Part shown: piece by piece, positions 1 to 47,561 of the stretch
Numbering within the stretch: the first letter of the stretch is position 1
Layout of the letters: the number at the start of each line of letters is the position of its first letter
DNA from: an uncultured Erysipelotrichaceae bacterium
GTDB taxonomy: Bacteria > Bacillota_I > Bacilli_A > RF39 > UBA660
Direction of reading: 5' to 3'
Length of the DNA stretch: 47,561 bases
NCBI GenBank assembly: GCA_902783985.1
Contig: CACZTI010000061.1
Span: 1-47,561, forward strand
Notes under the pieces: generated by a model
The model's input: only the letters and a program-made list of their open reading frames with translations
Databases searched by the model: none
Told to the model about the DNA's origin: nothing
Program-made: the position numbers and the translations under genes

Positions 1-285
1 GTAGGATTTATAACAGCAGATGAAATAGCATATGCCGGAGGAAAATATAGTTCATCGAATAGTACATTCTATTTAAATAATAATTCAAGTTATTGGTCTG
101 GCTCGCCTGATCACTTTAGTTATGGCTATGCTTTCGAGTTCGTTGTGAATATTGCCGGCGACCTTGACTACAGCGGTGTGTCTAGCACTAATGTCAATGG
201 CGTGCGTTCTGTCGTTTCGCTAGTACCTGGAACAGCAATAACTTCTGGAGATGGAACACCAACAAATCCATATATAATAGAATAA
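1..285 (+). CDS. 3' fragment (94 codons plus TAA; 5' end outside the window) of a probable surface protein ending in a C-type-lectin-like (DUF1566/FISUMP-like) domain with a hypervariable cassette
   Basis: Frame 1 is open from base 1 to TAA at 283-285. Translation: VGFITADEIAYAGGKYSSSNSTFYLNNNSSYWSGSP...NGVRSVVSLVPGTAITSGDGTPTNPYIIE. The YWSGSP ... G-VR-x-V layout resembles lectin-fold C-terminal domains. An inverted near-identical paralogue lies at 47280-47561. Confidence 0.6.
   Translation, partial: VGFITADEIAYAGGKYSSSNSTFYLNNNSSYWSGSPDHFSYGYAFEFVVNIAGDLDYSGVSSTNVNGVRSVVSLVPGTAITSGDGTPTNPYIIE
109..198 (+). other. Hypervariable cassette (DGR variable-region-like), 30 codons, followed by a conserved GC-rich 21-mer at 199-219
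   Basis: About 50% G+C in a roughly 25% G+C background. Differs from the paralogous cassette at 47367-47453 only at codon positions 1 and 2 over the first 22 aligned codons. The flanks are otherwise almost identical. Confidence 0.5.
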
Positions 286-294
286 TATTAAATT

Positions 295-2695: not shown

Positions 2696-5600
2696 TTTAA
2701 CTAAAGAACAGACTCTTGCCGTTAATGAAGAAGGGAAAAACATTATTGTATCAGCCGGAGCTGGAAGTGGCAAGACGATGGTTTTATCAACAAGGGTAAT
2801 TAGAAAAATAAAAGATGGAACAGATATTGATCATATGTTAATTCTAACTTTCACCATAGCAGCTGCTAATGAAATGAAAGCAAGAATAAGAAAGAACATT
2901 AAAAAGAATAATCTTTTAGAACAACTTAATAAACTAGATAATAGTTATATTACTACATTTGATAGTTTCTTCTTATCTCTTGTTAAAAAGTATCATTATG
3001 TCCTAAATATTAATAAGAATGTCAATATTATTGAAAGTAATATTCTAGAACTTAAAATTAAAGAATATTTAAATGATATTTTAGAAGAAGAATATCTAAA
3101 GAAAGATGAATATTTTACAAAATTAATTAATGATTTTTGTATTAAAGATGATGATGAAATAAGAAAAGCTATTCTAAGTATTTATAATAAATTAAATATG
3201 AAATATAATAAAGTTGAATATTTAAACAACTATTTAGATTACTTTTATAGTGATACTTTTATTGATAATAAAATAAGGGAATATGAAAACTATTTAAAAG
3301 AAAAAATAGAAGACTATAATATTCTATTAACGAAATTATCTAATGTAACAGATGCCGATTATTTTTCAAAGGTTATCGCATCATCAAATGACCTATTAAA
3401 TAGTAATACTTATAAGGAAATAAGAGAAAATATTTTGAAATTAGAGATTCCTAGACTTCCAAATAAAAGTGGGGAAGAAGCTACTAATATTAAAAATGAT
3501 ATCAAAAAACTAACAGATGAAATAAAAAATCTTACTGAAAATGAAGATATTATTTCTCTTAAAAATGATATTCAATATACCTCTAATTATACTAAACCAA
3601 TAATTGATATCATAAAAAAACTAGATGATAAAATAAACGAATATAAAAAGAAAAATGATTTATATGACTTTGTTGATATTAACAAAATGGCTATTAAAAT
3701 AGTAAAAGAAAACGAAAATATTAGAAATGAAATAAAATACTATTTTAATGAAATAATGGTTGATGAATATCAAGATACATCTGATTTACAAGAAGAATTA
3801 ATTACTTTAATTAGTAATAATAATTTATACATGGTAGGGGATATTAAACAATCAATCTATCGTTTTAGAAATGCCAATCCCACCATCTTTAAAAATAAAT
3901 ATGATAATTACGCTAAAGGAAACAATGGTTTAAAAATAGATTTATTAAATAACTTCCGTTCCCGTGAAGAAGTCCTTGATAACATTAATTTATTATTTAA
4001 ATTTATTATGAGTGATGATATTGGAGGGGCTAATTACATCAAGGATCACCAAATGATTTTTGGTAATACTTCATATAATCAAGAAGGTAAAACTATTCAA
4101 GATAATAACATGGAAATATATCACTATGATAAAGATAATGATTTACTAAAAAAATTCAAAAAAGAAGAAATTGAAGCTTTTATTATAGCTCGCGATATTA
4201 AAGAAAAAGTAGAGAATCATTACCAAATATTTGATAAAGATGAAAAGATATTAAAAGATATTACTTATAATGATTTTTCTATTTTAATTGATAGATCAAC
4301 AAATTTTGAATTATATAAAAAAATATTTTTATACTTTAATATACCATTAAGTATTTATAAAGATGAAACCTTAACTAACAGTGATATCTTTAGTGTTATT
4401 AATAGTATTATTAAATTTATATGTATTATTAATGATAAACCAAATTTAAAAGATATGAATTATTTATATTTATCAATTGGAAGAAGTTTCTTATTTAATA
4501 TTGATGATGATACTTTATTTAAAGTAATTACTTTAGGTACGGTTAAAGATACTTTAATATACCAAATGATTAATGATATTGCCCAAAATATTGATAATAA
4601 AACCATAACTAATCTTTTAGATGAAATAATAATTAAATTTGATTTTTATAATAAATTAAGAACTATTCCAAATATTAGAGATAATTATACTAAAATAGAA
4701 TATCTTTATACATTATCGAATACTTTAAATAAAATGGGATATACTTATAAAGATTTTACAGGATTAATTGAAGAAATCTTTAATAGTGAAAAAGAAATAA
4801 AATTTAGTGTATCAAAAGAAGAAAACAATAGTGTTAAATTAATGACTATTCATCACTCTAAAGGGTTAGAGTACCACATATGTTATTTCCCTGGATTATA
4901 TAAACAGTTTAATTTTAAAGATATCTTAGAAAACTTTAACTATAGTAAAAGATTAGGTATAATAACTCCTATCTTTAATGATGGCATAAGTAAAACTTTT
5001 TATGATTATTTAAATAAAAATGATTATTATAATGATGAAATTAGTGAAAAAATAAGATTATTTTATGTAGCAGTAACTAGAGCTAAAGAAAAAATGATTT
5101 TTATATCTAGTATGAAAGATAAATATGAAGAATATGATAAATCAGGAATAGTATCCGATAATATAAGAAGAAAATATCGTACATTTGATGGATTACTAGA
5201 ATCAATAAAATCACATATCAATCCATATATTAAAGAAATAGATTTAAATAGTCTAAATTTATCTAAAGATTATAATTTAATTAATTCCAATAATATCTTT
5301 GGTAATATTAACAATATCCAAGATAAAATAAATATTTATAATTATGAATTAAAAGAAACATCTGAAATAACTGAATCTCATTATTCTAAAAGTAATATTA
5401 AATTAATTACTAAAGAAGAAAGAGATGTCATGGATTTTGGTACGATGATGCACTATTTATTAGAAACAATGGATTTAGTTAACCCTGACTATACTGGTAT
5501 TGATGATAAATATGTAAATTATATTAAGAAATTTTTAAATAATGATTTAGTAAAAGATATCAAAAAAGCTAAAATATATCAAGAATATGAGTTTATTCAT

Positions 5601-5816
5601 CAAGAAGAAGATAATATCAGTCATGGTATTATAGATTTGATGTTAGAATACTCCGATCACATTGATATTATAGATTATAAATTAAAACACATTGATGATC
5701 CTGCCTATATAAAACAATTAACAGGATATCAAGATTATATAAAATCATTAAAAAATAAACCCGTTAATATATACTTATATTCAATAATTGATAATATCTA
5801 TAAAAAGTTGAATTAG
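2688..5816 (+). CDS. addA: ATP-dependent helicase/nuclease AddAB subunit A (UvrD/Rep-type)
   Basis: LTKEQTLAVNEEGKNIIVSAGAGSGKT Walker A, DEYQDTS motif, C-terminal nuclease IIDLMLEY..IDIIDYK. The ORF opens at GTG 2679. ATG 2688 has GAAGG 8 nt upstream, so the start could be 2679, 2682 or 2688. Confidence 0.9.
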   Translation: MSNLTKEQTLAVNEEGKNIIVSAGAGSGKTMVLSTRVIRKIKDGTDIDHMLILTFTIAAANEMKARIRKNIKKNNLLEQLNKLDNSYITTFDSFFLSLVKKYHYVLNINKNVNIIESNILELKIKEYLNDILEEEYLKKDEYFTKLINDFCIKDDDEIRKAILSIYNKLNMKYNKVEYLNNYLDYFYSDTFIDNKIREYENYLKEKIEDYNILLTKLSNVTDADYFSKVIASSNDLLNSNTYKEIRENILKLEIPRLPNKSGEEATNIKNDIKKLTDEIKNLTENEDIISLKNDIQYTSNYTKPIIDIIKKLDDKINEYKKKNDLYDFVDINKMAIKIVKENENIRNEIKYYFNEIMVDEYQDTSDLQEELITLISNNNLYMVGDIKQSIYRFRNANPTIFKNKYDNYAKGNNGLKIDLLNNFRSREEVLDNINLLFKFIMSDDIGGANYIKDHQMIFGNTSYNQEGKTIQDNNMEIYHYDKDNDLLKKFKKEEIEAFIIARDIKEKVENHYQIFDKDEKILKDITYNDFSILIDRSTNFELYKKIFLYFNIPLSIYKDETLTNSDIFSVINSIIKFICIINDKPNLKDMNYLYLSIGRSFLFNIDDDTLFKVITLGTVKDTLIYQMINDIAQNIDNKTITNLLDEIIIKFDFYNKLRTIPNIRDNYTKIEYLYTLSNTLNKMGYTYKDFTGLIEEIFNSEKEIKFSVSKEENNSVKLMTIHHSKGLEYHICYFPGLYKQFNFKDILENFNYSKRLGIITPIFNDGISKTFYDYLNKNDYYNDEISEKIRLFYVAVTRAKEKMIFISSMKDKYEEYDKSGIVSDNIRRKYRTFDGLLESIKSHINPYIKEIDLNSLNLSKDYNLINSNNIFGNINNIQDKINIYNYELKETSEITESHYSKSNIKLITKEERDVMDFGTMMHYLLETMDLVNPDYTGIDDKYVNYIKKFLNNDLVKDIKKAKIYQEYEFIHQEEDNISHGIIDLMLEYSDHIDIIDYKLKHIDDPAYIKQLTGYQDYIKSLKNKPVNIYLYSIIDNIYKKLN

Positions 5817-5896: not shown

Positions 5897-7747
5897 ATGA
5901 TTTTAGACAAAATAAAAAATCCCAGTGATATAAAAAAATTATCTCTTAATGAAAAAAAGATATTATCTGAAGAAATAAGAGACATAATTCTTAAAACAGT
6001 ATCTGAAAATGGTGGTCACTTAGCTTCTAATCTTGGTGTTGTTGAACTTACTATTGCTTTATTATCATATCTCGATTTAGATAAAGATAAAATAATTTGG
6101 GATGTAGGGCACCAATGTTATACATATAAATTATTAACAGGAAGAAAAGATAAGTTTAATACTTTAAGAAAAACTGGTGGAATATCAGGTTTTCCCAGAA
6201 GTAATGAATCTAATTATGATTTCTTTGATGTGGGACATTCTAGTACTTCAATATCCGTTGCTTTAGGTATGGCACGTGCCATATCAATTAAAAAGGAAAA
6301 GAAAAAAGTAGTGGCTATCATAGGAGATGGAGCTCTAACATCAGGTCTTGCTATGGAAGCTTTAAATGATGCAGGAATTAGTAAAACTAATTTAATAGTC
6401 ATATTAAATGATAATAAAATGAGTATTTCTAAAAATACTGGTGGATTAAGTCAATTTTTATCACATCTTCGAACTAGAAAAACATATGTTAAATTAAATT
6501 CCATAATAAGAAAAATAGTTACTAATATTCCTTTTATTGGCAAATATCTATATAAAATAGTTGCATATATTAAAAAAAGAATTAAAGGTCTTTTTATCAA
6601 AAATATGTATTTTGAAAATATTGGATATACATACCTAGGTCCCGTTAATGGTCATAATATCTCGGATATGATTAATATCTTAAAAAGTACTAATAATATC
6701 GATGGTCCAATATTACTTCATGTAATAACAAAAAAAGGGAAGGGATACTTGAAAAGTGAACTAGAACCAAATAAATATCATGCAGTATCACCCTTTGATA
6801 TCAATAAAGGTTTAATAAATAAACATAATGAAACTTATTCTGATATTGTTGGCAATACTTTAGTTAAACTTGCTAAAAATGATAAAAGAATTGTTGCTGT
6901 AACTGCCGCAATGGCAGAAGGTACCGGATTAAGTAATTTCAAGAAGCATTATCCTAAAAGATTCTATGATGTTGAAATATGTGAAGAACATGCTTTAACA
7001 ATGTCTTCTGGTATGGCTAAAGAAGGAATGATTCCTTTTGTAGCGATATATTCAACTTTTATTCAAAGAGGATATGATGAAATAATCCATGATATATGTT
7101 TAAATGATTGTCATGTTGTATTATTAGTAGATAGAGCAGGTAATACAGGAAATGATGGAGAAACTCACCATGGTATATATGATTTATCTTTTTTAAAAAC
7201 AATTCCTAATTTAGTTATTATGGCCCCTAAAGATGCTTTTGAATTATATTTAATGATAAAATTTTCCATTAATTACCATCATCCTATTGCTATTAGATAT
7301 CCCAAAGGTAATATTATTAATATTAATGAAAATAAAAAAATATTATTAGGTAAAAGTGAAATATTAAAAGAGGGAAGGGATATTACTATTTTAGCAGTTG
7401 GCAAAATGGTTCAAAGAAGTCTTAATATATCACATAAATTATCTAATGATAATATTGATGCTGAAGTAATAAATATAAGGTTTATTAAACCATTTGATTA
7501 TGATACAGTAATACAATCATTCAATAAAACACATTTATTAGTAACAATAGAAGATAATGATTATGAATATGGATTTGCAGAAATAATTACTAAATATATA
7601 AACCAAGATAAAGTTAAATCATTTGGTTATCCAGATACCTTTATATCACATGGTAACATTTCTGATTTAGAAAAGAAATATCATCTAGATGAAGATAGTT
7701 TATACAATGAAATAATAGATTTTTATCAAAAAAATAAACAAGTTTAA
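5897..7747 (+). CDS. dxs: 1-deoxy-D-xylulose-5-phosphate synthase
   Basis: GGHLASNLGVVELTIAL, DVGHQCYTYKLLTGR, IGDGALTSG (ThDP motif), and a transketolase-like C-terminal half. Confidence 0.95.
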   Translation: MILDKIKNPSDIKKLSLNEKKILSEEIRDIILKTVSENGGHLASNLGVVELTIALLSYLDLDKDKIIWDVGHQCYTYKLLTGRKDKFNTLRKTGGISGFPRSNESNYDFFDVGHSSTSISVALGMARAISIKKEKKKVVAIIGDGALTSGLAMEALNDAGISKTNLIVILNDNKMSISKNTGGLSQFLSHLRTRKTYVKLNSIIRKIVTNIPFIGKYLYKIVAYIKKRIKGLFIKNMYFENIGYTYLGPVNGHNISDMINILKSTNNIDGPILLHVITKKGKGYLKSELEPNKYHAVSPFDINKGLINKHNETYSDIVGNTLVKLAKNDKRIVAVTAAMAEGTGLSNFKKHYPKRFYDVEICEEHALTMSSGMAKEGMIPFVAIYSTFIQRGYDEIIHDICLNDCHVVLLVDRAGNTGNDGETHHGIYDLSFLKTIPNLVIMAPKDAFELYLMIKFSINYHHPIAIRYPKGNIININENKKILLGKSEILKEGRDITILAVGKMVQRSLNISHKLSNDNIDAEVINIRFIKPFDYDTVIQSFNKTHLLVTIEDNDYEYGFAEIITKYINQDKVKSFGYPDTFISHGNISDLEKKYHLDEDSLYNEIIDFYQKNKQV

Positions 7748-9238: not shown

Positions 9239-10126
9239 ATGAAAGATACAATAAGTGATTATTTAGACTATATAACTTTAGAAAAAGGATTAACTGATAA
9301 TACTCGTGAAAGTTATGCCTTTGATTTAGCATGTTTTTGTAATAAATTTAATAATTATAAAATTAATCAAATTACAGAAAATGATTTAGTAAACTATCTC
9401 AAGTATTTAAAAGATGAAAAGAAATTATCTTCAAGAAGTATTGAAAGACACTTAACAACTTTAAGAGGCTTTTATAAGTATTTAAAAAAAATGAATATTA
9501 TTAATGAAGATATAACTAGTAATATTGATAATTTAAAGTTAGAAAAAAAATTACCAACTACCTTAGATTTAGAAGAAATAAATACTCTTATGAATATAAA
9601 ACTTGATACACCATTTAATATAAGAACCAAAGCTATGCTAGAACTTATGTATTCATCAGGATTAAGAGTATCAGAATTAGTTAGTTTGACAATAAATGAT
9701 ATTGATTTATATAATGATACCATTATTGTTAATGGTAAAGGAAGAAAAGAAAGAATAGTACCAATTGGTGCTGTTGCTAAAGAATCCTTAATTAACTATT
9801 TAAACTGTAGAAATGCTTTATTAAAAAGAAAAAAAGGTAATCCCAATGAATTATTTTTAAATAATCATGGTCTTGCAATAACAAGGAATGGTTTTAATTA
9901 TCTTTTAAATAATATTTTAAAAGAGAAGGGGATAGAGAAGAAAGTATCTCCCCATACACTTAGACATTCTTTTGCCACCCATATGCTTGATAATGGTGCA
10001 GATTTAAGAACTATTCAAGAATTGCTAGGGCACACTGATATTGTAACAACTAGAATATATACTCATGTATCAAAAAAACAAATTCAAGATAATTATAATA
10101 AATATGAAAATAGAGGTGAAAAATAA
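9239..10126 (+). CDS. xerD: Tyrosine recombinase XerD (RipX-type)
   Basis: LRHSFATHMLDNGADLRTIQELLGHTDIVTTRIYTHV catalytic region. The xerD-deoB neighbourhood matches the Bacillus ripX-drm arrangement. Confidence 0.85.
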   Translation: MKDTISDYLDYITLEKGLTDNTRESYAFDLACFCNKFNNYKINQITENDLVNYLKYLKDEKKLSSRSIERHLTTLRGFYKYLKKMNIINEDITSNIDNLKLEKKLPTTLDLEEINTLMNIKLDTPFNIRTKAMLELMYSSGLRVSELVSLTINDIDLYNDTIIVNGKGRKERIVPIGAVAKESLINYLNCRNALLKRKKGNPNELFLNNHGLAITRNGFNYLLNNILKEKGIEKKVSPHTLRHSFATHMLDNGADLRTIQELLGHTDIVTTRIYTHVSKKQIQDNYNKYENRGEK

Positions 10127-11289: not shown

Positions 11290-11304
11290 TTGTAGCGGAT
11301 TTAC

Positions 11305-11340
11305 TTCCCCTACTTTTTAATTATCATAAAAAAGGGGAGG
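11305..11340 (+). other. GC-cored hairpin after deoB (atypical terminator?)
   Basis: CCCCTACTTTTT, 9-nt loop, AAAAAAGGGGAG. No U tract follows on either strand. Confidence 0.3.
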
Positions 11341-11450
11341 GAATAATAAATTAATATGAATACGGCTATATAATATTTAATCCAATATTTCATAAATTTA
11401 TTATTATCATATAACTATAATATTTATAATTAATAGAAAATAATATATCT

Positions 11451-11735
11451 AAAACGATTCGAGTTTTAAATAATTGAATAATCATCCATCTTAAATATCA
11501 TTAGAAATTTATAAACCGTTTTTAAAACGATTCGAGATATCAATAAACGGATGATTATCCATCTCAAAGAAGATTAATAAAACGCTCTGTGACGATTCGA
11601 GATATAAATAGATGAATATTTATCCATCTAAATGAAGAATATTAAATAGCATCAAGATATGATATTAAAAATAATAAATTAATGTAAAACGATTTGATAA
11701 CTTAAAACATGAACAATTATAGAACTCAAAATATA
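11451..11735 (+). repeat. Intergenic array of three 38-bp direct repeats plus one degenerate copy
   Basis: Cores lie at 11454-11491, 11527-11564 and 11592-11629. Each has ACGATTCGAG, then 20 variable nt, then ATCCATCT. Spacers are 35 and 27 bp. A degenerate ACGATTTGAT copy sits at 11689. An extremely AT-rich tract follows at 11700-11880. Confidence 0.7.
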
Positions 11736-11887
11736 TAAAAAGATATTCATATAGTTATTATTAATAAAATATCATTAAATAATAATATTATATTAATATA
11801 ATATAAAAATATCTAATTATTCTTTAAAATATATCGTTTCTTATAATATATATTATGTTAAGTTCTATAAAAATAAATAATGATAGA

Positions 11888-12151
11888 TTATCCTCTATCA
11901 TTATTTTTATAATTATTGTTTTTATAATTATTATTGTAGTAATAATATTTTTTCTTTTTCTTTTTTTTAATCAACTCATCAACAGTTTCAGTATCTTTAG
12001 ATTCATCATTTTGTGATCTTTTTTCATGTCTTTTTTGAAATTCTTCTTTTTTCATTTTTTTTATCGTTATAAAAGATCCTATTATTACTGAAATAGTTGC
12101 CGCAATAAGAAATGTAAAATTCCATGTATCTGTAAAAGCTTCTAGTATCAT
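11888..12151 (-). CDS. Small membrane protein with one N-terminal TM helix and a low-complexity K/Y/N tail
   Basis: 87-aa ORF immediately downstream of the XRE gene. The TM segment is FTFLIAATISVIIGSFITI. Confidence 0.45.
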   Translation of the reverse strand: MILEAFTDTWNFTFLIAATISVIIGSFITIKKMKKEEFQKRHEKRSQNDESKDTETVDELIKKKKKKKYYYYNNNYKNNNYKNNDRG

Positions 12152-37298: not shown

Positions 37299-40200
37299 TT
37301 AGCATGGGCTTCCACAAATCATACCATCAAAATTACCTGTTACAGGATCATGGCAAGTGGTAAGATGTTCTCTCTCACCACTACATGAACGAACACATCC
37401 TGTCCAACGATAGCATTCTTCTTTGATAGTTAATGTTGCCACATTTGATTCTGAAGACGTATTATAATTAGCATTTCCAGCCTTTCTTGCTTGTATTTCC
37501 CAAGTACCGATTTCTTTTCCGCAAGCGGTATTAGTTTTGTCCGAACTCCAAGCCGACCAAGAACCACCAACATTTCTCCATCTATATTCTGTGGTTAATC
37601 CTGATGTTCCACCAGTTTCTCCTATACAATGGGAATTACCATCTTTATCAAAAGAGGCATTAGATAACGTTGGGGCAGTTGGAGTAGCTTTATTTATTTT
37701 CCAACTTACTGAACATGATCCAGTATAGTTCCCCGAACCAGTACATGTATATGAATATGAATTAGCATTGGTTGCTGAGGTTGTTCCACTTGTTGCACTA
37801 CTTCCTGTTGGACATGATACTCCACTATTTTGTGATCCACCATTGTATGTTCTTGTTGCTCCTGTTGGACAACTTCCTATTGCTTTTGGATTTATTTTCC
37901 AACTTACTGAACATGATCCAGTATAGTTTCCCGAACCAGTACATGTATATGAATATGAATTAACATTGGTTGCTGAGGTTGTTCCACTTGTTGCACTACT
38001 TCCTGTTGGACATGATACTCCACTATTTTGTGATCCACCATTATATGTTCTTGTTGCTCCTGTTGGACAACTTCCTATTGCTTTTGGATTTATTTTCCAA
38101 CTTACAGAACAACTACTTGAGAATTTATATCCTGCATTTGATGTACAATTATGATAATATGTATTGGCATTTTGAGCTTTAGTAGTCCCACCGGCACTAC
38201 TTCCGCTTGGACATGTTACTCCACTATTTTGATCTGCGCCATTATATGTTTTATCAGCAGGACTTCCTGGACATGCAATGGTCATTCTATTTACTGTTGC
38301 TGTATACGTCTTACTTACTCCATTATAATTTGTTCCAGCAGCTTGCGTAATTGTTATTGTTGCCTTTTTACCATCAGCTGTTGTTGCTTGTGGGATTATT
38401 GTTAGAGTCTTTCCACTTACACTACATTTTGCAACAGATTGATCACTTGATGTACAACTTAATGCTCCATCTCCATCTGTCGTTATTGTTACTGTTCCGT
38501 TTGTTCCATATGTTAATGTCCCACTTGTTACATTTAAACTCATTGTGGTATTCTTTCTATTTATTTTCCAACTTACTGAACATGTATTCGAAAATTTATA
38601 TCCCGCGTTTGCTGTACAACTATGATGATATGTATTGGCATTTTTTCCTTTTAAATCTCCTCCTGCTGTACTTCCATTTGGACATGTTACTCCACTATTT
38701 TGATCTGCTCCATTATATGTTTTATCAGCAGGACTTCCTGGACATGCTAAAGTCTTTCTATTTACTGTTACACTATATGTTTTACTATTTGCAAGATAAT
38801 TTGCTGTTTCTGCTTGACTTACTGTTATTGTGGCAGTTTTATTATCTGCACTATTTGCTTGTGGTATTACTGTTAAAGTATTTCCACTTATACTACATTT
38901 TGCTACTGCTTGATCACTTGATGTACAACTTAATGCTCCATTACTATCTGTTGTTATTGTTACTGTTTCATTTGTTTCATATATTGCTATTCCACTTGTT
39001 TTACTTAATGACATATCTGGTAATTTTTTCTTTATATTACATACAAATGTCTTATCTGTTGTTGTTCCATCACTCCATGCTAATCCATATAATATTTTTG
39101 CTGTTACTGTATAATTTCCTGCATTTGTTCCTGTGTTATTTACAAATGTTACTCCACTTGGTGGGGCTACCGTTATTTTTTGACTCTTTGTATTATATGT
39201 TATATCATCACAATAAATATTCGTTGTTACATTTACTTTATCGGTATGTTCTGTCGTTAACATATGTGTCTTTTTTTGCGTTACTACTGTATTATTTGTT
39301 ACTTCACTTCCATTGTACATCCATTTTATTAACTTTTTATTATATATTCCTGGTAATTTATCTAAATATCCATATGGTTTTCCTGTTACTACTTCATATT
39401 GTTCGGTTGTTCCATCATCATATTTTAATGTTATATAATATGATACATCAAATTTACTACTTTTTTCTGTTTTATTTCCTACAACATCATATACTCTAAC
39501 ATTTAATTGATAACTTCCACTTTCTAACTTTTCATTGATATTATATACATTACTTGCTAATGTTTTATAATCACTATCACTACATGTTTCATTTGCTTTC
39601 TTTAGACAATATTCTATTTTTGATACTCCCATATCATCTTTGACATTATCTAATTTTATATTAACATTCTTTTTGTCTGTTCCATCTGTTATCGTATATC
39701 TATTTTCATTCTTTATTTCAAATGTAGGAGCATCTTTATCTATTTTGACATTGATTACTCTATCATCTGCTACTTTCTCTCCGTTTCTATTATAGGCTGA
39801 TACTAAATAACTTCCTCCATCATTGATTGTTATAGTACACTTCTTACTTACCGCTACACAATGATCATTTACTTTATCAATGCTATAGTATGCTATATCT
39901 TCTTTATCTAAATATAATTCTACTTGTATTCCTTCATTTATTACTTCAACGTTTTTATATGATAACAATGGATTATATCTAATTCCTGTATTTACTCTTT
40001 TTGCTGATACATTTATCGTTCCTGGTACATATCCTTGACAAAATTTTCCATCACTTTCATAATCTAAACATTTCAAACATACTTCATAATCATATGTATT
40101 GGTTACACTATCACGAAATACATAGACATCACCTTTTTCACATGTTCCACCTTTTTTATCTTTTACTGGTGATACATAATTACCACTTTCTAAGTTTTCT

Positions 40201-40415
40201 AATGCAACTATATTGTATCCCTTTATTGGTAATTCTTCACGATTCTTCTCGAAATATTCATTTCCTGATAATAACAAACTATTTTCTATTGTTTTATAAT
40301 AATTATCGCTTGCTGTATCAAAAATATAGTTATAACTTATTATTCCTATTCCTCCCAACAATGCAATAATTACCATTGTTACTATTAATTCAACTACTGT
40401 AAATCCCTTTTTCAT
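37299..40415 (-). CDS. Giant (1038 aa) prepilin-type N-terminal domain protein with Ig-like and cysteine-rich repeats; probable pilus-displayed or cell-surface adhesin
   Basis: MKKG|FTVVELIVTMVIIALLGGIG class III signal with E at +5. A pilin-like head ends in YEVCLKC. Big_2-like segments (SSDQAVAKCSISGNTLTV..ATITV) follow. The KTYNGADQNSGVTCP...CSVSWKIN module is repeated 4 times. The last 38 aa contain 6 Cys. RBS AGGTGA. Confidence 0.8.
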   Translation of the reverse strand: MKKGFTVVELIVTMVIIALLGGIGIISYNYIFDTASDNYYKTIENSLLLSGNEYFEKNREELPIKGYNIVALENLESGNYVSPVKDKKGGTCEKGDVYVFRDSVTNTYDYEVCLKCLDYESDGKFCQGYVPGTINVSAKRVNTGIRYNPLLSYKNVEVINEGIQVELYLDKEDIAYYSIDKVNDHCVAVSKKCTITINDGGSYLVSAYNRNGEKVADDRVINVKIDKDAPTFEIKNENRYTITDGTDKKNVNIKLDNVKDDMGVSKIEYCLKKANETCSDSDYKTLASNVYNINEKLESGSYQLNVRVYDVVGNKTEKSSKFDVSYYITLKYDDGTTEQYEVVTGKPYGYLDKLPGIYNKKLIKWMYNGSEVTNNTVVTQKKTHMLTTEHTDKVNVTTNIYCDDITYNTKSQKITVAPPSGVTFVNNTGTNAGNYTVTAKILYGLAWSDGTTTDKTFVCNIKKKLPDMSLSKTSGIAIYETNETVTITTDSNGALSCTSSDQAVAKCSISGNTLTVIPQANSADNKTATITVSQAETANYLANSKTYSVTVNRKTLACPGSPADKTYNGADQNSGVTCPNGSTAGGDLKGKNANTYHHSCTANAGYKFSNTCSVSWKINRKNTTMSLNVTSGTLTYGTNGTVTITTDGDGALSCTSSDQSVAKCSVSGKTLTIIPQATTADGKKATITITQAAGTNYNGVSKTYTATVNRMTIACPGSPADKTYNGADQNSGVTCPSGSSAGGTTKAQNANTYYHNCTSNAGYKFSSSCSVSWKINPKAIGSCPTGATRTYNGGSQNSGVSCPTGSSATSGTTSATNVNSYSYTCTGSGNYTGSCSVSWKINPKAIGSCPTGATRTYNGGSQNSGVSCPTGSSATSGTTSATNANSYSYTCTGSGNYTGSCSVSWKINKATPTAPTLSNASFDKDGNSHCIGETGGTSGLTTEYRWRNVGGSWSAWSSDKTNTACGKEIGTWEIQARKAGNANYNTSSESNVATLTIKEECYRWTGCVRSCSGEREHLTTCHDPVTGNFDGMICGSPC
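37693..38105 (-). repeat. Near-perfect 198-bp (66-codon) in-frame tandem duplication, about 2.1 copies
   Basis: Unit starts lie at 37693, 37891 and 38089. Copies 1 and 2 differ at 3 of 198 nt (one V/A change and two synonymous changes). Confidence 0.9.
38085..39020 (-). repeat. Older, diverged tandem duplication of a roughly 157-codon module (residues 466-620 and 621-777)
   Basis: The protein-level repeat runs from LSKTSG..TITTDSNGALSCTSSDQ..CSVSWKINRK to LNVTSG..TITTDGDGALSCTSSDQ..CSVSWKINPK. Confidence 0.8.
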
Positions 40416-40962: not shown

Positions 40963-43266
40963 CTATATTATTTCTTCATCGTCAGTATTATTCAATTTAA
41001 CTAAAACTTCTCTAGGTTTACTACCATTCATTGGACCAATAATACCTCTTTCTTCTAATAAGTCGATTACTCTCGCAGCTCGATTATAACCAAGTTTAAA
41101 TCTTCTTTGAAGAAGTGATGCTGAAGCTTTTCCAGATTTAACAACAAACTCTACGATTTCATCATATAATGGATCATCATATTCTTCATCTTTATCCATT
41201 GCTTCCCCAACTCCAGTAGTTTCACCCTGAACATGATCAAGATTTTCGAATCTTGCATCATACTGAGCCACTTGTTCTTTACAAACAAATTCAACAATTC
41301 TTAATATTTCCTCTTCACTTATCCATGCACCTTGAATTCTTGTTGGAGCATTTTCTCCTTGTGGTAGGAATAACATATCACCTTTACCAAGAAGTTTTTC
41401 AGCACCTTGCATATCAAGGATTGTTCGAGAATCAATTCCTGATGATACAGCAAAAGCAATTCTTGTAGGGATATTAGCTTTAATAACACCTGTAATAACA
41501 TCTGTTGAAGGTCTTTGAGTAGCAATAATTAAGTGAATTCCAGCAGCACGAGCCATCTGAGTAATTCTCATAATACTATCTTCAACTTCTTTACTAGCAA
41601 CCATCATTAAATCCGCTAATTCATCTACAACAACGATAATATATGGCATTTTTGCCATTTTATCTTCTTGACTGCGATTTTTATTTTCCGTTTCAACCTT
41701 TTGATTATATGACTCAATATTCTTAACTTTACTTTCTTCAAAAACATCATATCTATGTTCCATTTCCGAAACAATCATTTGTAATGCAGCTGATGCTTTT
41801 TTAGGATCAGTAACAACAGGTCTTAATAAATGAGGTACACCATTATACATTGATAACTCTACTTTTTTAGGATCTACTAATAATAATTTAACTTCATCTG
41901 GTTTACAACGCATTAATATACTTGCCAAAATACAGTTAATACAAACAGATTTTCCGCTACCAGTAGCTCCGGCAACTAACATATGAGGTGTTTTATTAAT
42001 AGGATACATTCTAATTTCACCTTTAATATCTTTACCTAATGCCATTAATATCTTATTTGGATTAACTGGTTCACTAACAAGTTTTTCCATTATTTCACGA
42101 ATATAAACAATTGTTGCTGTATCATTAGCTATCTCAATACCACATGTACTCTTTCCTGGAATTGGAGCTTGAATTCTAACATCTTTTTTAGCAAGAGCTA
42201 AAGATATTTCTTTGTTGATACTTGTAAGTCTTGATAACTTAGTACCTGCCTTAATAGCAAGTTCATATTGTGTACAAGCAGGTCCAACTGTTACTGCAAC
42301 AACTTTACCAACAACACCAAATTCATTTAGAACCTCTTCTAAAATATTAATATTCTTTTCAATATTATCTTGATTATTTGTTTTTGATTTTTCTGGTTTG
42401 TTTAAAAGACTCGTTGGTGGCAAATGATAATTATAATTATCTATTATTTTAACAGGAGTTTTAATTCCTTCCTTATCGTCATCTTCTTTTTCTTCTTTGA
42501 TATCTGGTTTATTTCTATTTTTTATTTCATCTAAACTATTAATAATCACTTTATTAGATGTTTCTTTATCTTCTTTTATTGTATCATCAATATTGGTATT
42601 ATCATTAATTTTAACATCAACAACAGAATCATCACTTACCCCAATTAAATGACTTTCTCTTTCTTTCTTTTCATGTTTTGGAACAAGTTCTTTACTCTTA
42701 TCATAACCTTTTCTAATTAATTCAACGATTGAAATACCAGTGAATAATGTAAATCCTCCAATAATTAATATCCAATAAATGATTCTTGTACCTTCAAGGG
42801 CAAATAAAGAATAACAAAGGCTTAACAATAATCCTCCAAGTATTCCTCCACCAATATTAGCAAATACAGCATCACGACTAGCACCATTAACCGTTTTAAA
42901 AACATTTATTGTTTCATTAAAAGTATTATTAATAATGCTTTTCCATGTACTACCTTCTTCAATATAATTAATATGTACTAATATTAATACCCCAATAATC
43001 ACTAAAGAAAGACCTATTATCTTAGAACTTAAAAAATCAGGATATTCTTTATTAAACAAAACATATAACCCTATTAAAATAATCAATACCAAAGGAACTA
43101 GATATAAACTCCCAAACAAAAAGGCAAAAAAAGCACAAATTAATTTGCCACAAGGACCATATCCACATATTCCTAAAACACCTAATAAAATTAAAATAAT
43201 TCCATACACTTCAATACTTAAAGAAAACTTCGTTTTTGTTTCTTTTTTTCTTTTTCTCTTTGCCAT
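40963..43266 (-). CDS. ftsK: DNA translocase FtsK/SpoIIIE
   Basis: Four or five N-terminal TM helices, a linker, the motor with AGATGSGKSVCIN Walker A, and a gamma winged-helix C-terminus (LLQRRFKLGYNRAARVIDLLEERGIIG). Confidence 0.95.
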   Translation of the reverse strand: MAKRKRKKETKTKFSLSIEVYGIILILLGVLGICGYGPCGKLICAFFAFLFGSLYLVPLVLIILIGLYVLFNKEYPDFLSSKIIGLSLVIIGVLILVHINYIEEGSTWKSIINNTFNETINVFKTVNGASRDAVFANIGGGILGGLLLSLCYSLFALEGTRIIYWILIIGGFTLFTGISIVELIRKGYDKSKELVPKHEKKERESHLIGVSDDSVVDVKINDNTNIDDTIKEDKETSNKVIINSLDEIKNRNKPDIKEEKEDDDKEGIKTPVKIIDNYNYHLPPTSLLNKPEKSKTNNQDNIEKNINILEEVLNEFGVVGKVVAVTVGPACTQYELAIKAGTKLSRLTSINKEISLALAKKDVRIQAPIPGKSTCGIEIANDTATIVYIREIMEKLVSEPVNPNKILMALGKDIKGEIRMYPINKTPHMLVAGATGSGKSVCINCILASILMRCKPDEVKLLLVDPKKVELSMYNGVPHLLRPVVTDPKKASAALQMIVSEMEHRYDVFEESKVKNIESYNQKVETENKNRSQEDKMAKMPYIIVVVDELADLMMVASKEVEDSIMRITQMARAAGIHLIIATQRPSTDVITGVIKANIPTRIAFAVSSGIDSRTILDMQGAEKLLGKGDMLFLPQGENAPTRIQGAWISEEEILRIVEFVCKEQVAQYDARFENLDHVQGETTGVGEAMDKDEEYDDPLYDEIVEFVVKSGKASASLLQRRFKLGYNRAARVIDLLEERGIIGPMNGSKPREVLVKLNNTDDEEII

Positions 43267-47264: not shown

Positions 47265-47279
47265 TGATTTCTTATCTTT

Positions 47280-47561
47280 CTATCCAACAATGTATGGATT
47301 TGTTGGTGTTCCATCTCCAGAAGTTATTGCTGTTCCAGGAACGACCGAAACGACAGAACGCACGCCCGAGCTAGCGCTAGCCACACCACCGCTGACGCTA
47401 AGGTTGCCACCATACATATTGAACTCGTAAGCAGTGCCATTACTAAAGCTACGAGGCGAGCCAGACCAATAACCTGAATTATTATTTAAATAGAATGTAC
47501 TATTCGATGAACTATATTTTCCTCCGGCATATGCTATTTCATCTGCTGTTATAAATCCTAC
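47280..47561 (-). CDS. 3' fragment (93 codons plus TAG; 5' end outside the window) of a paralogue of the left-end gene
   Basis: The reverse complement of 47454-47561 matches 1-108 at 107 of 108 positions. Translation: ...YWSGSPRSFSNGTAYEFNMYGGNLSVSGGVASASSGVRSVVSVVPGTAITSGDGTPTNPYIVG*. Confidence 0.6.
   Translation of the reverse strand, partial: VGFITADEIAYAGGKYSSSNSTFYLNNNSGYWSGSPRSFSNGTAYEFNMYGGNLSVSGGVASASSGVRSVVSVVPGTAITSGDGTPTNPYIVG
47367..47453 (-). other. Hypervariable cassette (DGR variable-region-like), 29 codons, followed by the conserved 21-mer at 47346-47366
   Basis: Same position as 109-198 in the paralogue. About 55% G+C. The differences are confined to codon positions 1 and 2 in the first 22 aligned codons. 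Confidence 0.5.

What the first reader, a model, noticed from the sequence alone, without database searches (positions are those of the whole stretch)
109..219. Left-end gene carries a hypervariable cassette with a DGR-type (adenine/AAY) substitution signature
I aligned codons 109-177 with the inverted paralogue at 47453-47388, allowing one codon gap. Twelve of 22 codons differ, by 19 nucleotide substitutions. All 19 fall at codon position 1 or 2, and all 22 third positions are identical. By contrast, the 108 nt upstream differ at one base, and the 21 nt downstream (GGCGTGCGTTCTGTCGTTTCG, 199-219) are identical. Ordinary paralogue drift would concentrate changes at third positions, so this pattern is the opposite. 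Setting every variable site to A gives an implied template: AAT AAC TTT AGT AAT GGC AAT GCT TAC GAG TTC AAT ATG AAT AAT .. GGC AAC CTT AAC AAC AGC GGT. That is a run of AAY codons, which is how DGR template repeats are built, since adenine-specific mutagenesis randomises positions 1 and 2 of Asn codons. The cassette sits at the extreme C-terminus of a YWSGSP...GVRxV lectin-like domain, the usual place for a DGR variable region. It is about 50% G+C in a roughly 25% G+C genome. The conserved GC-rich 21-mer is a candidate IMH-like element. No template repeat or reverse transcriptase is present in this window.
Basis: partly seen in the sequence, partly recalled or inferred. Interest (0 to 1): 0.8.

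Follow-up and report, generated by a model that had tools for sequence, protein, structure and literature searches.

The report
Remote DGR variable regions in paralogous surface-protein genes
Both ends of this contig are the tails of two sister surface-protein genes that each carry a short hypervariable cassette with the hallmarks of a diversity-generating retroelement, a known mechanism seen here in an uncharacterised gene family, although the template for these two cassettes was not found.

Summary
Window 1-285 (+) and 47280-47561 (-) are the 3' ends of two inverted paralogues, P0001-like and P0002-like. Their flanks are almost identical. The cassette (109-198 versus 47453-47367) differs by 19 substitutions in the first 22 aligned codons, all at codon positions 1 or 2. 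The block 94-219 is 50% G+C, and none of its 83 codons (both copies) ends in A, against 48% in the rest of the gene.

The DGR reading is supported. Two relatives in other MAGs have a target gene followed by TR, Avd and RT (L066; L082, cut at the RT start), with 24/25 and 17/17 TR-VR mismatches at template adenines. A contig of what appears to be the same population (L089) carries a paralogue with a TR, bAvd and RT. That TR matches a remote VR (15/16 mismatches at A) in the metagenome that holds the window's scaffold.

That TR serves a sister cassette class ("type-L"), not the window's "type-S" class. No type-S TR was found. The sites that vary among type-S VRs coincide with adenines of the type-L TR (p = 5e-8). 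The 21-mer carries the VR-type 3' motif GTCGTTTC; the two TRs carry GTATTTTC.

Verdict: a new member of a known kind, namely remote DGR targets. Current activity is unproven.

The parts
1..285 (+). 3' end (94 codons plus the TAA stop at 283-285) of the left paralogue. Its full length is P0001, 550 aa, at L005:8275-9927. It has an N-terminal signal-anchor, a beta-rich stalk and a C-terminal module of about 290 aa.
   Evidence: The AF2 model has pLDDT 85.
94..108 (+). 5' invariant, adenine-free anchor of the variable region, TGGTCTGGCTCGCCT (W-S-G-S-P). By analogy with L089, TR homology would start at about base 92.
   Evidence: Identical in both window copies and, apart from one third-position change in L095 (CCC for CCT), in all five type-S genes. 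Contains no A.
109..198 (+). Mutagenised body of the left variable region: 30 codons, NNY-type variable codons interspersed with fixed A-free scaffold codons.
199..219 (+). IMH-like 3' element GGCGTGCGTTCTGTCGTTTCG. It is A-free and G+C-rich, and it contains the VR-type motif GTCGTTTC.
   Evidence: Identical in both copies. The VR/TR contrast GTCGTTTC versus GTATTTTC is seen in L089 and L066. The A-free run ends here across the family.
47280..47561 (-). 3' end (93 codons plus the TAG stop at 47282-47280) of the inverted right paralogue. Its C-terminus is identical to that of P0002, 547 aa.
47454..47468 (-). 5' A-free anchor of the right variable region (TGGTCTGGCTCGCCT).
47367..47453 (-). Mutagenised body of the right variable region (29 codons).
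47346..47366 (-). IMH-like 21-mer of the right copy, identical to 199-219.

Best explanation
The two window ends are remote variable regions (VRs) of a cellular diversity-generating retroelement. Each lies at the C-terminus of a secreted or surface protein of a large paralogous family.

Proposed mechanism. A DGR elsewhere in the genome (RT, bAvd and a template repeat, TR) transcribes the TR. The RT makes a cDNA in which template adenines are copied unfaithfully. The cDNA then replaces the VR, with homing primed at the G+C-rich 3' element (199-219). The 5' junction is set by homology to the A-free anchor (94-108). The TR places adenines at positions 1 and 2 of AAY codons, so each homing event recodes about 15 to 20 surface residues without creating stop codons. 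Scaffold residues use A-free codons and stay fixed. Single-codon length differences arise by slippage on AAY runs.

Shown here: the substitution pattern, the adenine avoidance, DGR targeting of this protein family, a sister cassette class with its own TR/Avd/RT that matches a remote VR in the metagenome holding the window's scaffold, and the VR-type 3' motif.

Inferred: that a cognate 'type-S' TR exists, that homing still occurs, and that the domain binds a ligand.
For: The pattern at positions 1 and 2 is confirmed. None of the 83 codons of 94-219 in the two copies ends in A, against 48% in the rest of the gene, and the block switches to GGC/GGT, GTG/GTC/GTT, CGT, CCT and GCT codons. Complete or near-complete DGRs sit next to family members in L066, L082 and L089, with 24/25, 17/17 and 16/18 mismatches at TR adenines. 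RVT_1 and bAvd were confirmed by Pfam for L066 and L089; L082 has an Avd-like ORF and only the N-terminus of the RT. The L089 TR matches the remote VRs of P0006 (L011, same metagenome as the window's scaffold) and P0005, with no RT within 10 kb of P0006 or on the short P0005 contig. Variable columns of type-S VRs coincide with adenines of the type-L TR (p = 4.7e-8). The 3' motif is GTCGTTTC in VRs and GTATTTTC in the TRs. The P0009 VR has a 9-nt insertion relative to its own adjacent TR, so the indels seen in the window are compatible with a DGR; codon indels next to AAC runs are also documented in PMC5758913. The window cassettes fall in the 'pristine' class (third-position A at most 0.07) together with all proven VRs, whereas about 21 other family cassettes look decayed at 0.2-0.28. 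Other type-S sequences show differences confined to the VR on otherwise identical flanks: P0251 and P0244 are identical over about 180 residues upstream of the cassette but differ at about 13 of 30 VR positions. One orthologous locus has three VR alleles.
Against: No TR matching the window's cassette class was found. It is absent from the window, from 97 fetched loci, and from the GTDB genome, JGI metagenome and IMG/VR collections, which do not appear to hold this organism at all (the GTDB pattern was also slightly too strict). Both window VRs are identical in three or four assemblies from other samples, although those contigs are 99.95-100% identical overall. The right-copy VR is also unchanged in L008, which has a different downstream context. 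No convincing inverted repeat follows the 21-mer. Foldseek did not hit the solved DGR variable proteins, and the Pfam match to Lcl_C is far below threshold. The C-terminal halves of these genes are also mosaic through gene conversion.
Confidence: 0.8

Rival explanations
1. Fossil VRs. The cassettes were written by a DGR in the past, but the cognate type-S TR or its RT has been lost from this lineage. The cassettes now change only by ordinary mutation and by gene conversion between paralogues.
For: No type-S TR was found anywhere. The VRs are invariant across assemblies and across alleles that differ by 1%. About a quarter of family cassettes in related MAGs look decayed, with third-position A at 0.2-0.28, so orphaning does happen in this family. 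L090 carries the same gene and about 100 nt of downstream sequence as L089 but lacks TR-Avd-RT.
Against: The window cassettes have no third-position A and 50-55% G+C in a 24% G+C genome. AT-biased mutation should erode that state, as it apparently has in the decayed cassettes. The flanks of the two window copies are almost identical while the cassettes differ at 19 or more sites of the adenine type, so the cassettes diverged after the flanks were last homogenised. Several type-S VR alleles sit on near-identical flanks.
Confidence: 0.14
2. No retroelement is involved. The paralogous adhesin-like genes are under strong diversifying selection on a surface loop, combined with segmental gene conversion or cassette exchange between paralogues.
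For: The C-terminal halves of family genes are clearly mosaic; blocks rich in synonymous differences alternate with identical blocks. Many paralogues occur per genome. No TR is in hand for this cassette class.
Against: Selection does not explain the absence of third-position change alongside 19 changes at positions 1 and 2, the adenine-free codon choice of scaffold residues, the G+C-rich A-free 3' 21-mer, or the match between variable columns and adenines of a real TR in a sister cassette. Donor cassettes carrying the observed variants were not found.
Confidence: 0.04
3. Assembly artefact. The terminal repeats and their differences come from chimeric or collapsed assembly of a multi-copy gene.
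For: The contigs break at the repeat in every assembly. L008 joins the right-copy gene to a different downstream sequence.
Against: Three independent assemblies made with different assemblers and from different samples give the same two cassettes, each joined to the same unique neighbours. A 115-kb scaffold reads through the left copy.
Confidence: 0.02

Closest known systems
DGRs found here next to relatives of the same protein family: L089 (ENA ERZ919344 scaffold_3339) and L066 (rumen MAG RUG14705, CADCJQ010000003.1)
   Same: The protein family is the same, and the VR sits at the same place (between W-x-x-S-P and G-x-R-x-V-V-S). The codon design is the same, with AAT/AAC runs between A-free scaffold codons. 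The 3' motif is the same (VR GTCGTTTC). Targets can be remote. The RT has a MutS_I-like C-terminal extension and is preceded by bAvd.
   Different: Their TRs are not cognate to the window's cassettes: 44-51 mismatches, only half of them at A. The window's 'type-S' scaffold (TCT GGC TCG ... GTG CGT TCT) differs from 'type-L' (TTG GGC TCT ... TTG CGT GCT).
Treponema denticola DGR (TvpA plus non-adjacent targets)
   Same: It is a cellular DGR that acts in trans on several non-adjacent paralogous targets with C-terminal VRs. Seven non-adjacent targets are reported in PMC5758913.
   Different: The phylum and the VR class differ. TvpA has a solved C-type-lectin fold; here the fold assignment is only indirect. 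The TR for the window's cassettes is unknown.
Legionella pneumophila DGR target LdtA and the DUF1566/Lcl_C ('CLec2', category d) VR class of Wu et al. 2018
   Same: The VR is C-terminal with a YWS...VR-type frame. There is a faint Pfam match to Lcl_C/DUF1566 and to DUF6273. The only PDB structural neighbour is the IgAse N-terminal domain, which its authors compare to the Lcl C-terminal domain.
   Different: The Pfam score is far below the gathering threshold (12.8 versus 34.9 bits). The host is a Gram-positive-type low-G+C organism. The N-terminus is a signal-anchor rather than a lipoprotein signal.
Bordetella phage BPP-1 DGR (Mtd, Avd, TR, Brt)
   Same: It is the prototype of the inferred mechanism: A-to-N mutagenesis of AAY codons, a G+C-rich IMH at the VR 3' end, and a non-identical IMH* in the TR (PMC5758913).
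   Different: It is phage-borne with an adjacent target that is a tail fibre, and a G+C-rich inverted repeat follows the IMH. No such repeat is evident here. The RTs are only distantly related: the L089 RT is about 30% identical to phage DGR RTs.

Membership tests
Diversity-generating retroelement (target gene / VR) | VR differences confined to sites that are adenine in the TR, seen as changes at codon positions 1 and 2 of AAY-type codons | tested here: met
   All 19 changes between the window copies are at positions 1 or 2. Five type-S genes differ by 47.5/36.2/10.9% at positions 1/2/3 in the VR against about 10/10/20% in the flanks. Variable columns coincide with A in the homologous type-L TR, p = 4.7e-8. 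The test is indirect because the cognate TR is not in hand.
Diversity-generating retroelement (target gene / VR) | A cognate template repeat in the same genome, matching the VR except at TR adenines | tested here: inconclusive
   Not found in the window, in 97 loci or in three public collections. Those collections do not hold this organism, and only about 100 kb of its genome was visible. A cognate TR was found for the sister cassette class (L089).
Diversity-generating retroelement (target gene / VR) | A DGR-type reverse transcriptase, with an Avd-type accessory gene, in the same genome | tested here: inconclusive
   Absent from the window. Present in L089: RVT_1 at 2.9e-13, the YMDD and LGVVSSQ motifs, and bAvd at 2.2e-7. 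The L089 TR matches the VR of P0006 in the metagenome that holds the window's scaffold. L089 itself comes from another sample.
Diversity-generating retroelement (target gene / VR) | A G+C-rich IMH at the 3' boundary of mutagenesis, distinct from the IMH* of the TR | tested here: met
   The A-free 21-mer (199-219) is identical in both copies. The motif is GTCGTTTC in VRs and GTATTTTC in the TRs of L089 and L066. Function is inferred by analogy.
Diversity-generating retroelement (target gene / VR) | An inverted repeat (hairpin or cruciform) just downstream of the IMH | tested here: not met
   No fold is better than shuffled sequence (z = +0.47 and -0.42). The feature is not universal: it was found in 34% of DGRs (PMC5758913).
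Diversity-generating retroelement (target gene / VR) | Adenine avoidance in scaffold codons of the VR | tested here: met
   0/83 codons have third-position A, against 48% in the rest of the gene. The two invariant elements (15 + 21 nt) contain no A; P = 7e-9 at the gene's A frequency.
Diversity-generating retroelement (target gene / VR) | Population heterogeneity restricted to the VR (evidence of activity) | tested here: inconclusive
   The two window VRs are invariant in three or four near-clonal assemblies. Other type-S genes show VR-restricted differences on identical flanks (P0251 versus P0244) and three VR alleles at one orthologous locus. Reads were not available.
C-type-lectin-fold DGR variable proteins (Mtd / TvpA / DUF1566-Lcl_C class) | The VR is displayed on a C-type-lectin-like fold, or the sequence belongs to DUF1566/Lcl_C or FGE-sulfatase | tested here: inconclusive
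   Pfam Lcl_C scores E = 0.15 and 12.8 bits against a cutoff of 34.9. DUF6273 is below its cutoff in a relative. The profile found no relevant PDB homologue; the one weak hit was an unrelated phage head protein. Confident AF2 models hit only 9qa6, the T. ramosa IgAse (E = 8e-4 and 0.088), whose N-terminal domain is described as a CTLD similar to Lcl-C. BFVD gave a DUF6273 protein at probability 1.0. There was no hit to Mtd or TvpA.
Recombinational antigenic variation (silent-cassette gene conversion) | Promoterless donor cassettes whose segments reappear in the expressed copy | tested here: not met
   No additional copies of the cassette occur in the window or the loci apart from full-length paralogues. 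The codon-position bias is not what this mechanism predicts.

The most novel reading that the evidence does not exclude
This uncultured low-G+C gut and rumen Bacilli lineage may run a DGR network with at least two template classes (type-S and type-L). The network would diversify a large repertoire of paralogous surface proteins in trans. One metagenome shows at least four VRs (three type-S and one type-L), and related MAGs carry many 'pristine' A-free cassettes (about 40 across the fetched loci). The displayed domain is related to the lectin-like N-terminal domain of a gut IgA protease. If this holds, it would be among the larger DGR-diversified repertoires in host-associated bacteria. Metagenome surveys that require the VR to lie next to the RT would have missed it.
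Probability: 0.35. Interest if true: 0.6.

Novelty: new member of a known kind. Interest (0 to 1): 0.4.

Why it matters
The finding shows that remote DGR targets can be recognised from sequence alone, through paralogue comparison and adenine avoidance, even when no TR or RT is on the contig. Large surveys state explicitly that they miss this class (PMC8144416). It assigns a mechanism of variation to an uncharacterised surface-protein family with no Pfam model. That family has more than 2,000 homologues and about 2,000 clusters at 50% identity, and it is expanded in uncultured gut and rumen Bacilli. It also explains why assemblies of these genomes break at these genes. The mechanism itself is well known, so the value lies in annotation and ecology rather than in a new concept.

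Tried and rejected
- **Template search.** I looked for a TR in the window by low-stringency blastn and found none. Degenerate VR/TR patterns found nothing in GTDB genomes, JGI metagenomes or IMG/VR. The organism appears to be absent from these collections. The GTDB pattern also wrongly required NGT at one codon.
- **Protein searches.** A search with the 94-aa fragment returned only two hits because word seeding failed, so that search was wasted. The L066 RT was used to look for the organism's own RT, but no hit was more than 51% identical to the L089 RT.
- **RT look-ups and scans.** Scanning JGI and IMG/VR for it found nothing.
- **Neighbouring genes.** The neighbours of seven type-S and type-L genes were checked for an RT. 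Only L089 had one.
- **Type-L TR as the template.** Rejected for the window's cassettes: half of the 44-51 mismatches are not at A.
- **Hairpin after the IMH.** Not supported.
- **Fold assignment.** A sequence-profile search of the PDB found no relevant homologue, and Foldseek gave no hit to Mtd or TvpA.
- **RNA genes.** No tRNA or Rfam hit occurs in the window.
- **Terminators.** No consensus terminator follows either gene end.

Full report
**What is at the coordinates.** The window is a 47.5-kb contig with 24.3% G+C. Its two ends are inverted copies of the same sequence. Bases 1-285 (+) and 47561-47280 (-) each encode the last 93-94 residues of a protein and its stop codon. The 108 nt before the cassette differ at one base (position 88). 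The 21-mer GGCGTGCGTTCTGTCGTTTCG (199-219 and 47366-47346) is identical in both copies. Between them, 12 of the first 22 aligned codons differ by 19 substitutions, all at codon positions 1 or 2. The last third of the cassette (175-198) is less tidy, with single-codon indels: the cassette is 90 nt in the left copy, 87 nt in the right copy and 84 nt in a third paralogue.

**Composition of the cassette.** The block 94-219 is 50% G+C (55% in the right copy). None of its 83 codons in the two copies ends in A, whereas 48% of codons in the rest of the gene do. Scaffold residues switch to A-free codons: Gly GGC/GGT instead of GGA, Val GTG/GTC/GTT instead of GTA, Arg CGT instead of AGA, Pro CCT instead of CCA. 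The two invariant elements (15 + 21 nt) contain no adenine, with P about 7e-9 at the gene's A frequency. This adenine avoidance is what a DGR template/variable repeat pair requires, and ordinary diversifying selection does not predict it.

**Source and reality of the sequence.** Exact look-ups of two flanking proteins found the same region in three other assemblies from three or four samples: ERZ27280292, ERZ1024288 and two STEW19-1 samples. Two assemblies break at the same repeat. A 115-kb scaffold reads through the left copy. This gives the full-length left gene, P0001 (550 aa), which has an N-terminal signal-anchor, a beta-rich stalk and a conserved C-terminal module of about 290 aa. Both cassettes are identical in all of these assemblies. 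The contigs are 99.95-100% identical overall, so this says little about activity. The neighbouring genes on a contig from the same metagenome (YabP, YqfD, Cse60, YabG-type peptidase) indicate a spore-forming Firmicute.

**The family.** P0001 has more than 2,000 homologues and no Pfam or NCBIfam model. In an alignment of 59 members, a conserved frame Y-W-x-x-S-P ... A-x-E-F ... G-V-R-P-V-V-S-L-x-P-G encloses positions that vary almost entirely among residues that NNY codons can encode: S, Y, N, V, G, F, T, L, D, R, A, H. Relatives occur in uncultured Bacilli, Erysipelotrichaceae and 'Tenericutes' MAGs from rumen and gut, often with many copies per genome.

**Direct evidence that the family is a DGR target.** I compared about 1.07 Mb of fetched loci with themselves and kept repeat pairs in which at least 80% of mismatches had A in one copy. 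This singled out two loci.
- In L066 (rumen MAG RUG14705), a 756-aa family member has a VR at 5487-5606. It is followed by a TR at 5944-6063 (25 mismatches, 24 at TR adenines), a bAvd-like ORF and a 491-aa RT.
- In L082, 17/17 mismatches are at TR adenines. An Avd-like ORF follows the TR, and the contig ends at the N-terminus of the RT.

A closer paralogue, P0009, is followed by a TR, bAvd and RT on L089, a 24.9% G+C contig. Its N-terminal half is about 90% identical at the DNA level to the P0001 gene. The RT has the YMDD and LGVVSSQ motifs and a MutS_I-like C-terminal extension.

The L089 TR is TGGTGGTTGGGCTCTCCT AAT AAC TTT AAT AGT GGT AAT GCT AAT GAG TTC ATT GTC AAT AAT GCT ... GGCTTGCGTGCTGTATTTTCC. 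It matches three VRs:
- the adjacent VR of P0009 (18 mismatches, 16 at A, plus a 9-nt insertion);
- the VR of P0005 (21 mismatches, 19 at A);
- the VR of P0006 (16 mismatches, 15 at A).

No RT lies within 10 kb of P0006 or on the short P0005 contig. P0006 lies on a scaffold of ERZ28614400, the metagenome that holds the window's 115-kb scaffold. That metagenome therefore holds a remote target of an L089-type TR, which suggests that the window's population carries a DGR acting in trans on this family.

**Relation of the window's cassettes to that DGR.** The window's cassettes belong to a sister class that I call type-S (YWSGSP...GVRSVVS). The class served by the L089 TR is type-L (WWLGSP...GLRAVVS). 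The L089 TR is not the template for type-S: 44-51 mismatches, only half of them at A. The two classes are nevertheless homologous position by position. Over the first 21 codons, columns that vary among five type-S VRs coincide with adenines of the type-L TR: 15 variable and A, 6 variable and not A, 2 invariant and A, 40 invariant and not A (Fisher p = 4.7e-8).

Across five type-S genes, pairwise differences in the cassette are 47.5/36.2/10.9% at codon positions 1/2/3, against about 10.5/10/20% in the flanks. The cassette's synonymous sites are thus more uniform than those of the surrounding gene, as expected if each cassette is periodically rewritten from a common template.

The 3' element supports the IMH idea. 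In both L089 and L066 the VR reads ...GTCGTTTC... where the TR reads ...GTATTTTC.... The window's 21-mer carries the VR version. The two window copies diverge immediately after it, at 220-225.

**Indels.** Length differences between the copies first looked like an argument against a single template. However, the P0009 VR has an extra NNT-NNT-GCT unit relative to its own adjacent TR. In-frame indels next to AAC runs are also documented in about 7% of DGRs and are attributed to RT slippage (PMC5758913).

**Recency.** About 84-90 family cassettes from all loci were scored for third-position A. About 40 are 'pristine' (third-position A at most 0.07, G+C 0.45-0.63). This group includes every VR with a proven TR and the window's cassettes. 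About 21 look decayed (at least 0.2, approaching the background of 0.41). In a genome this AT-rich, a cassette that is no longer rewritten should drift toward the decayed state. The window's cassettes have not done so. That argument is an inference.

The two window copies have nearly identical flanks but different cassettes, so the cassettes diverged after the flanks were last homogenised. Elsewhere in the type-S class, P0251 and P0244 are identical over about 180 residues upstream of the cassette but differ at about 13 of 30 cassette positions. One orthologous locus (LysM, sortase, two small ORFs, then the gene) has three VR alleles in different samples. One of these alleles, P0244, lies in the window's metagenome. 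That metagenome therefore has at least three type-S VRs and one type-L VR.

Against rapid turnover, a given VR allele persists across alleles that differ by 1% elsewhere. The C-terminal halves of these genes are also mosaic through gene conversion.

**What is missing.** No type-S TR was found. It is absent from the window, the 97 loci and the three public DNA collections, which do not contain this organism. No RT or Avd is in the window. No RT lies next to any of the type-S genes inspected. The L089 contig ends 8 nt after the RT stop codon, so what follows the RT is unknown. No convincing hairpin follows the 21-mer, but only about a third of DGRs have one.

**Fold.** AF2 models are confident: pLDDT 85 for the full-length protein and 90 for the C-terminal 140 aa. 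They hit only 9qa6, the Thomasclavelia ramosa IgA protease, in the PDB (E = 8e-4 and 0.088). Its authors describe the N-terminal domain as a C-type-lectin-like domain similar to the Lcl C-terminal domain (PMC12237041). BFVD gave a DUF6273 protein at probability 1.0. Pfam gave only a faint Lcl_C match. A lectin-like fold is therefore plausible but not established. I could not see which residues Foldseek aligned.

**Comparison with what is known.** All the elements seen here are documented variants of DGRs (PMC5758913): non-adjacent and remote targets, several targets per element, in-frame indels, lack of a hairpin, a DUF1566/Lcl_C-like VR class, and a MutS_I-like extension on the RT. Large metagenome surveys required the VR to lie next to the RT and say they miss remote targets (PMC8144416). 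This is therefore a new member of a known kind. What is new is the host lineage, the unannotated target family, and the presence of two cassette classes in one population.

**Verdict.** I put about 0.8 on 'remote VRs of a DGR with an unseen cognate TR', about 0.14 on 'DGR-written but now orphaned', and a few percent on explanations that do not involve a DGR. Interest is moderate at 0.4.

Noticed in passing
window 37299-40415 (-): A 1038-aa ORF with raised G+C (33-35%) contains long internal tandem repeats: period 471 at 38088-39000 (81% identity) and period 198 at 37692-38111 (98%). Its length differs between assemblies: 972 aa in L001 and L002, and disrupted in L003. It has no Pfam hit on record.
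   Followed up: partly
window 11290-11890: The GC-skew sign changes and gene orientation converges here (cumulative skew maximum), which suggests a replication terminus. The 600-bp AT-rich intergenic region holds three or four direct repeats of about 55 nt (starts at 11454, 11527, 11592 and 11689; ACGATTCGAG...GGATGATTATCCATC). A XerC/D-type integrase gene lies at 9239-10126 and FtsK at 40963-43266.
   Followed up: partly
window 1-290 and 47275-47561: The contig is bounded by inverted copies of the paralogue 3' ends, and independent assemblies break at the same place. Both genes point into the 47-kb segment, so recombination between the gene bodies could invert the segment and swap the two VR-bearing tails. 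L008 joins a right-copy-like gene to a different downstream sequence.
   Followed up: partly
L089:12521-13987 and L066:6586-8061: The DGR RTs carry a C-terminal extension of about 190 aa with a MutS_I-like match (E about 1e-6). Many of the 120 listed RT homologues have the same Pfam pair. Wu et al. 2018 noted this for only three RTs.
   Followed up: partly
L005:2475-3767, L005:6630-7958, L011:6125-7447, L066:8369-9562: AAA_14/DUF4143 ATPase genes recur next to family genes and directly after the L066 RT. This multi-copy gene may also explain assembly breaks near the DGR.
   Followed up: no
L066:1106-2986: A large serine recombinase gene lies immediately upstream of the DGR target gene, so the L066 DGR may sit on a mobile element.
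   Followed up: no
L090:2010-2115 versus L089:11650-11755: L090 shares the target gene and about 100 nt of downstream sequence with L089 (95.6% identity). It then diverges just before the TR and lacks TR-Avd-RT. This is either a presence/absence polymorphism of the DGR or a duplicated locus.
   Followed up: no
L092:3586-5230: A family gene is split into 409-aa and 140-aa ORFs (P0007 and P0241), apparently by a frameshift. Its VR-like cassette is intact.
   Followed up: no
P0248, P0249, P0250, P0291: Giant proteins of 2,500-4,900 aa carry 5 to 20 copies of the VR-bearing domain. About 2,000 clusters at 50% identity match the 94-aa fragment.
   Followed up: no
Family cassettes in L012-L088: Third-position A in the VR-equivalent block is bimodal: about 40 'pristine' cassettes (at most 0.07) and about 21 'decayed' ones (at least 0.2). 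This could serve as a sequence-only index of whether a remote DGR target is still being rewritten.
   Followed up: partly
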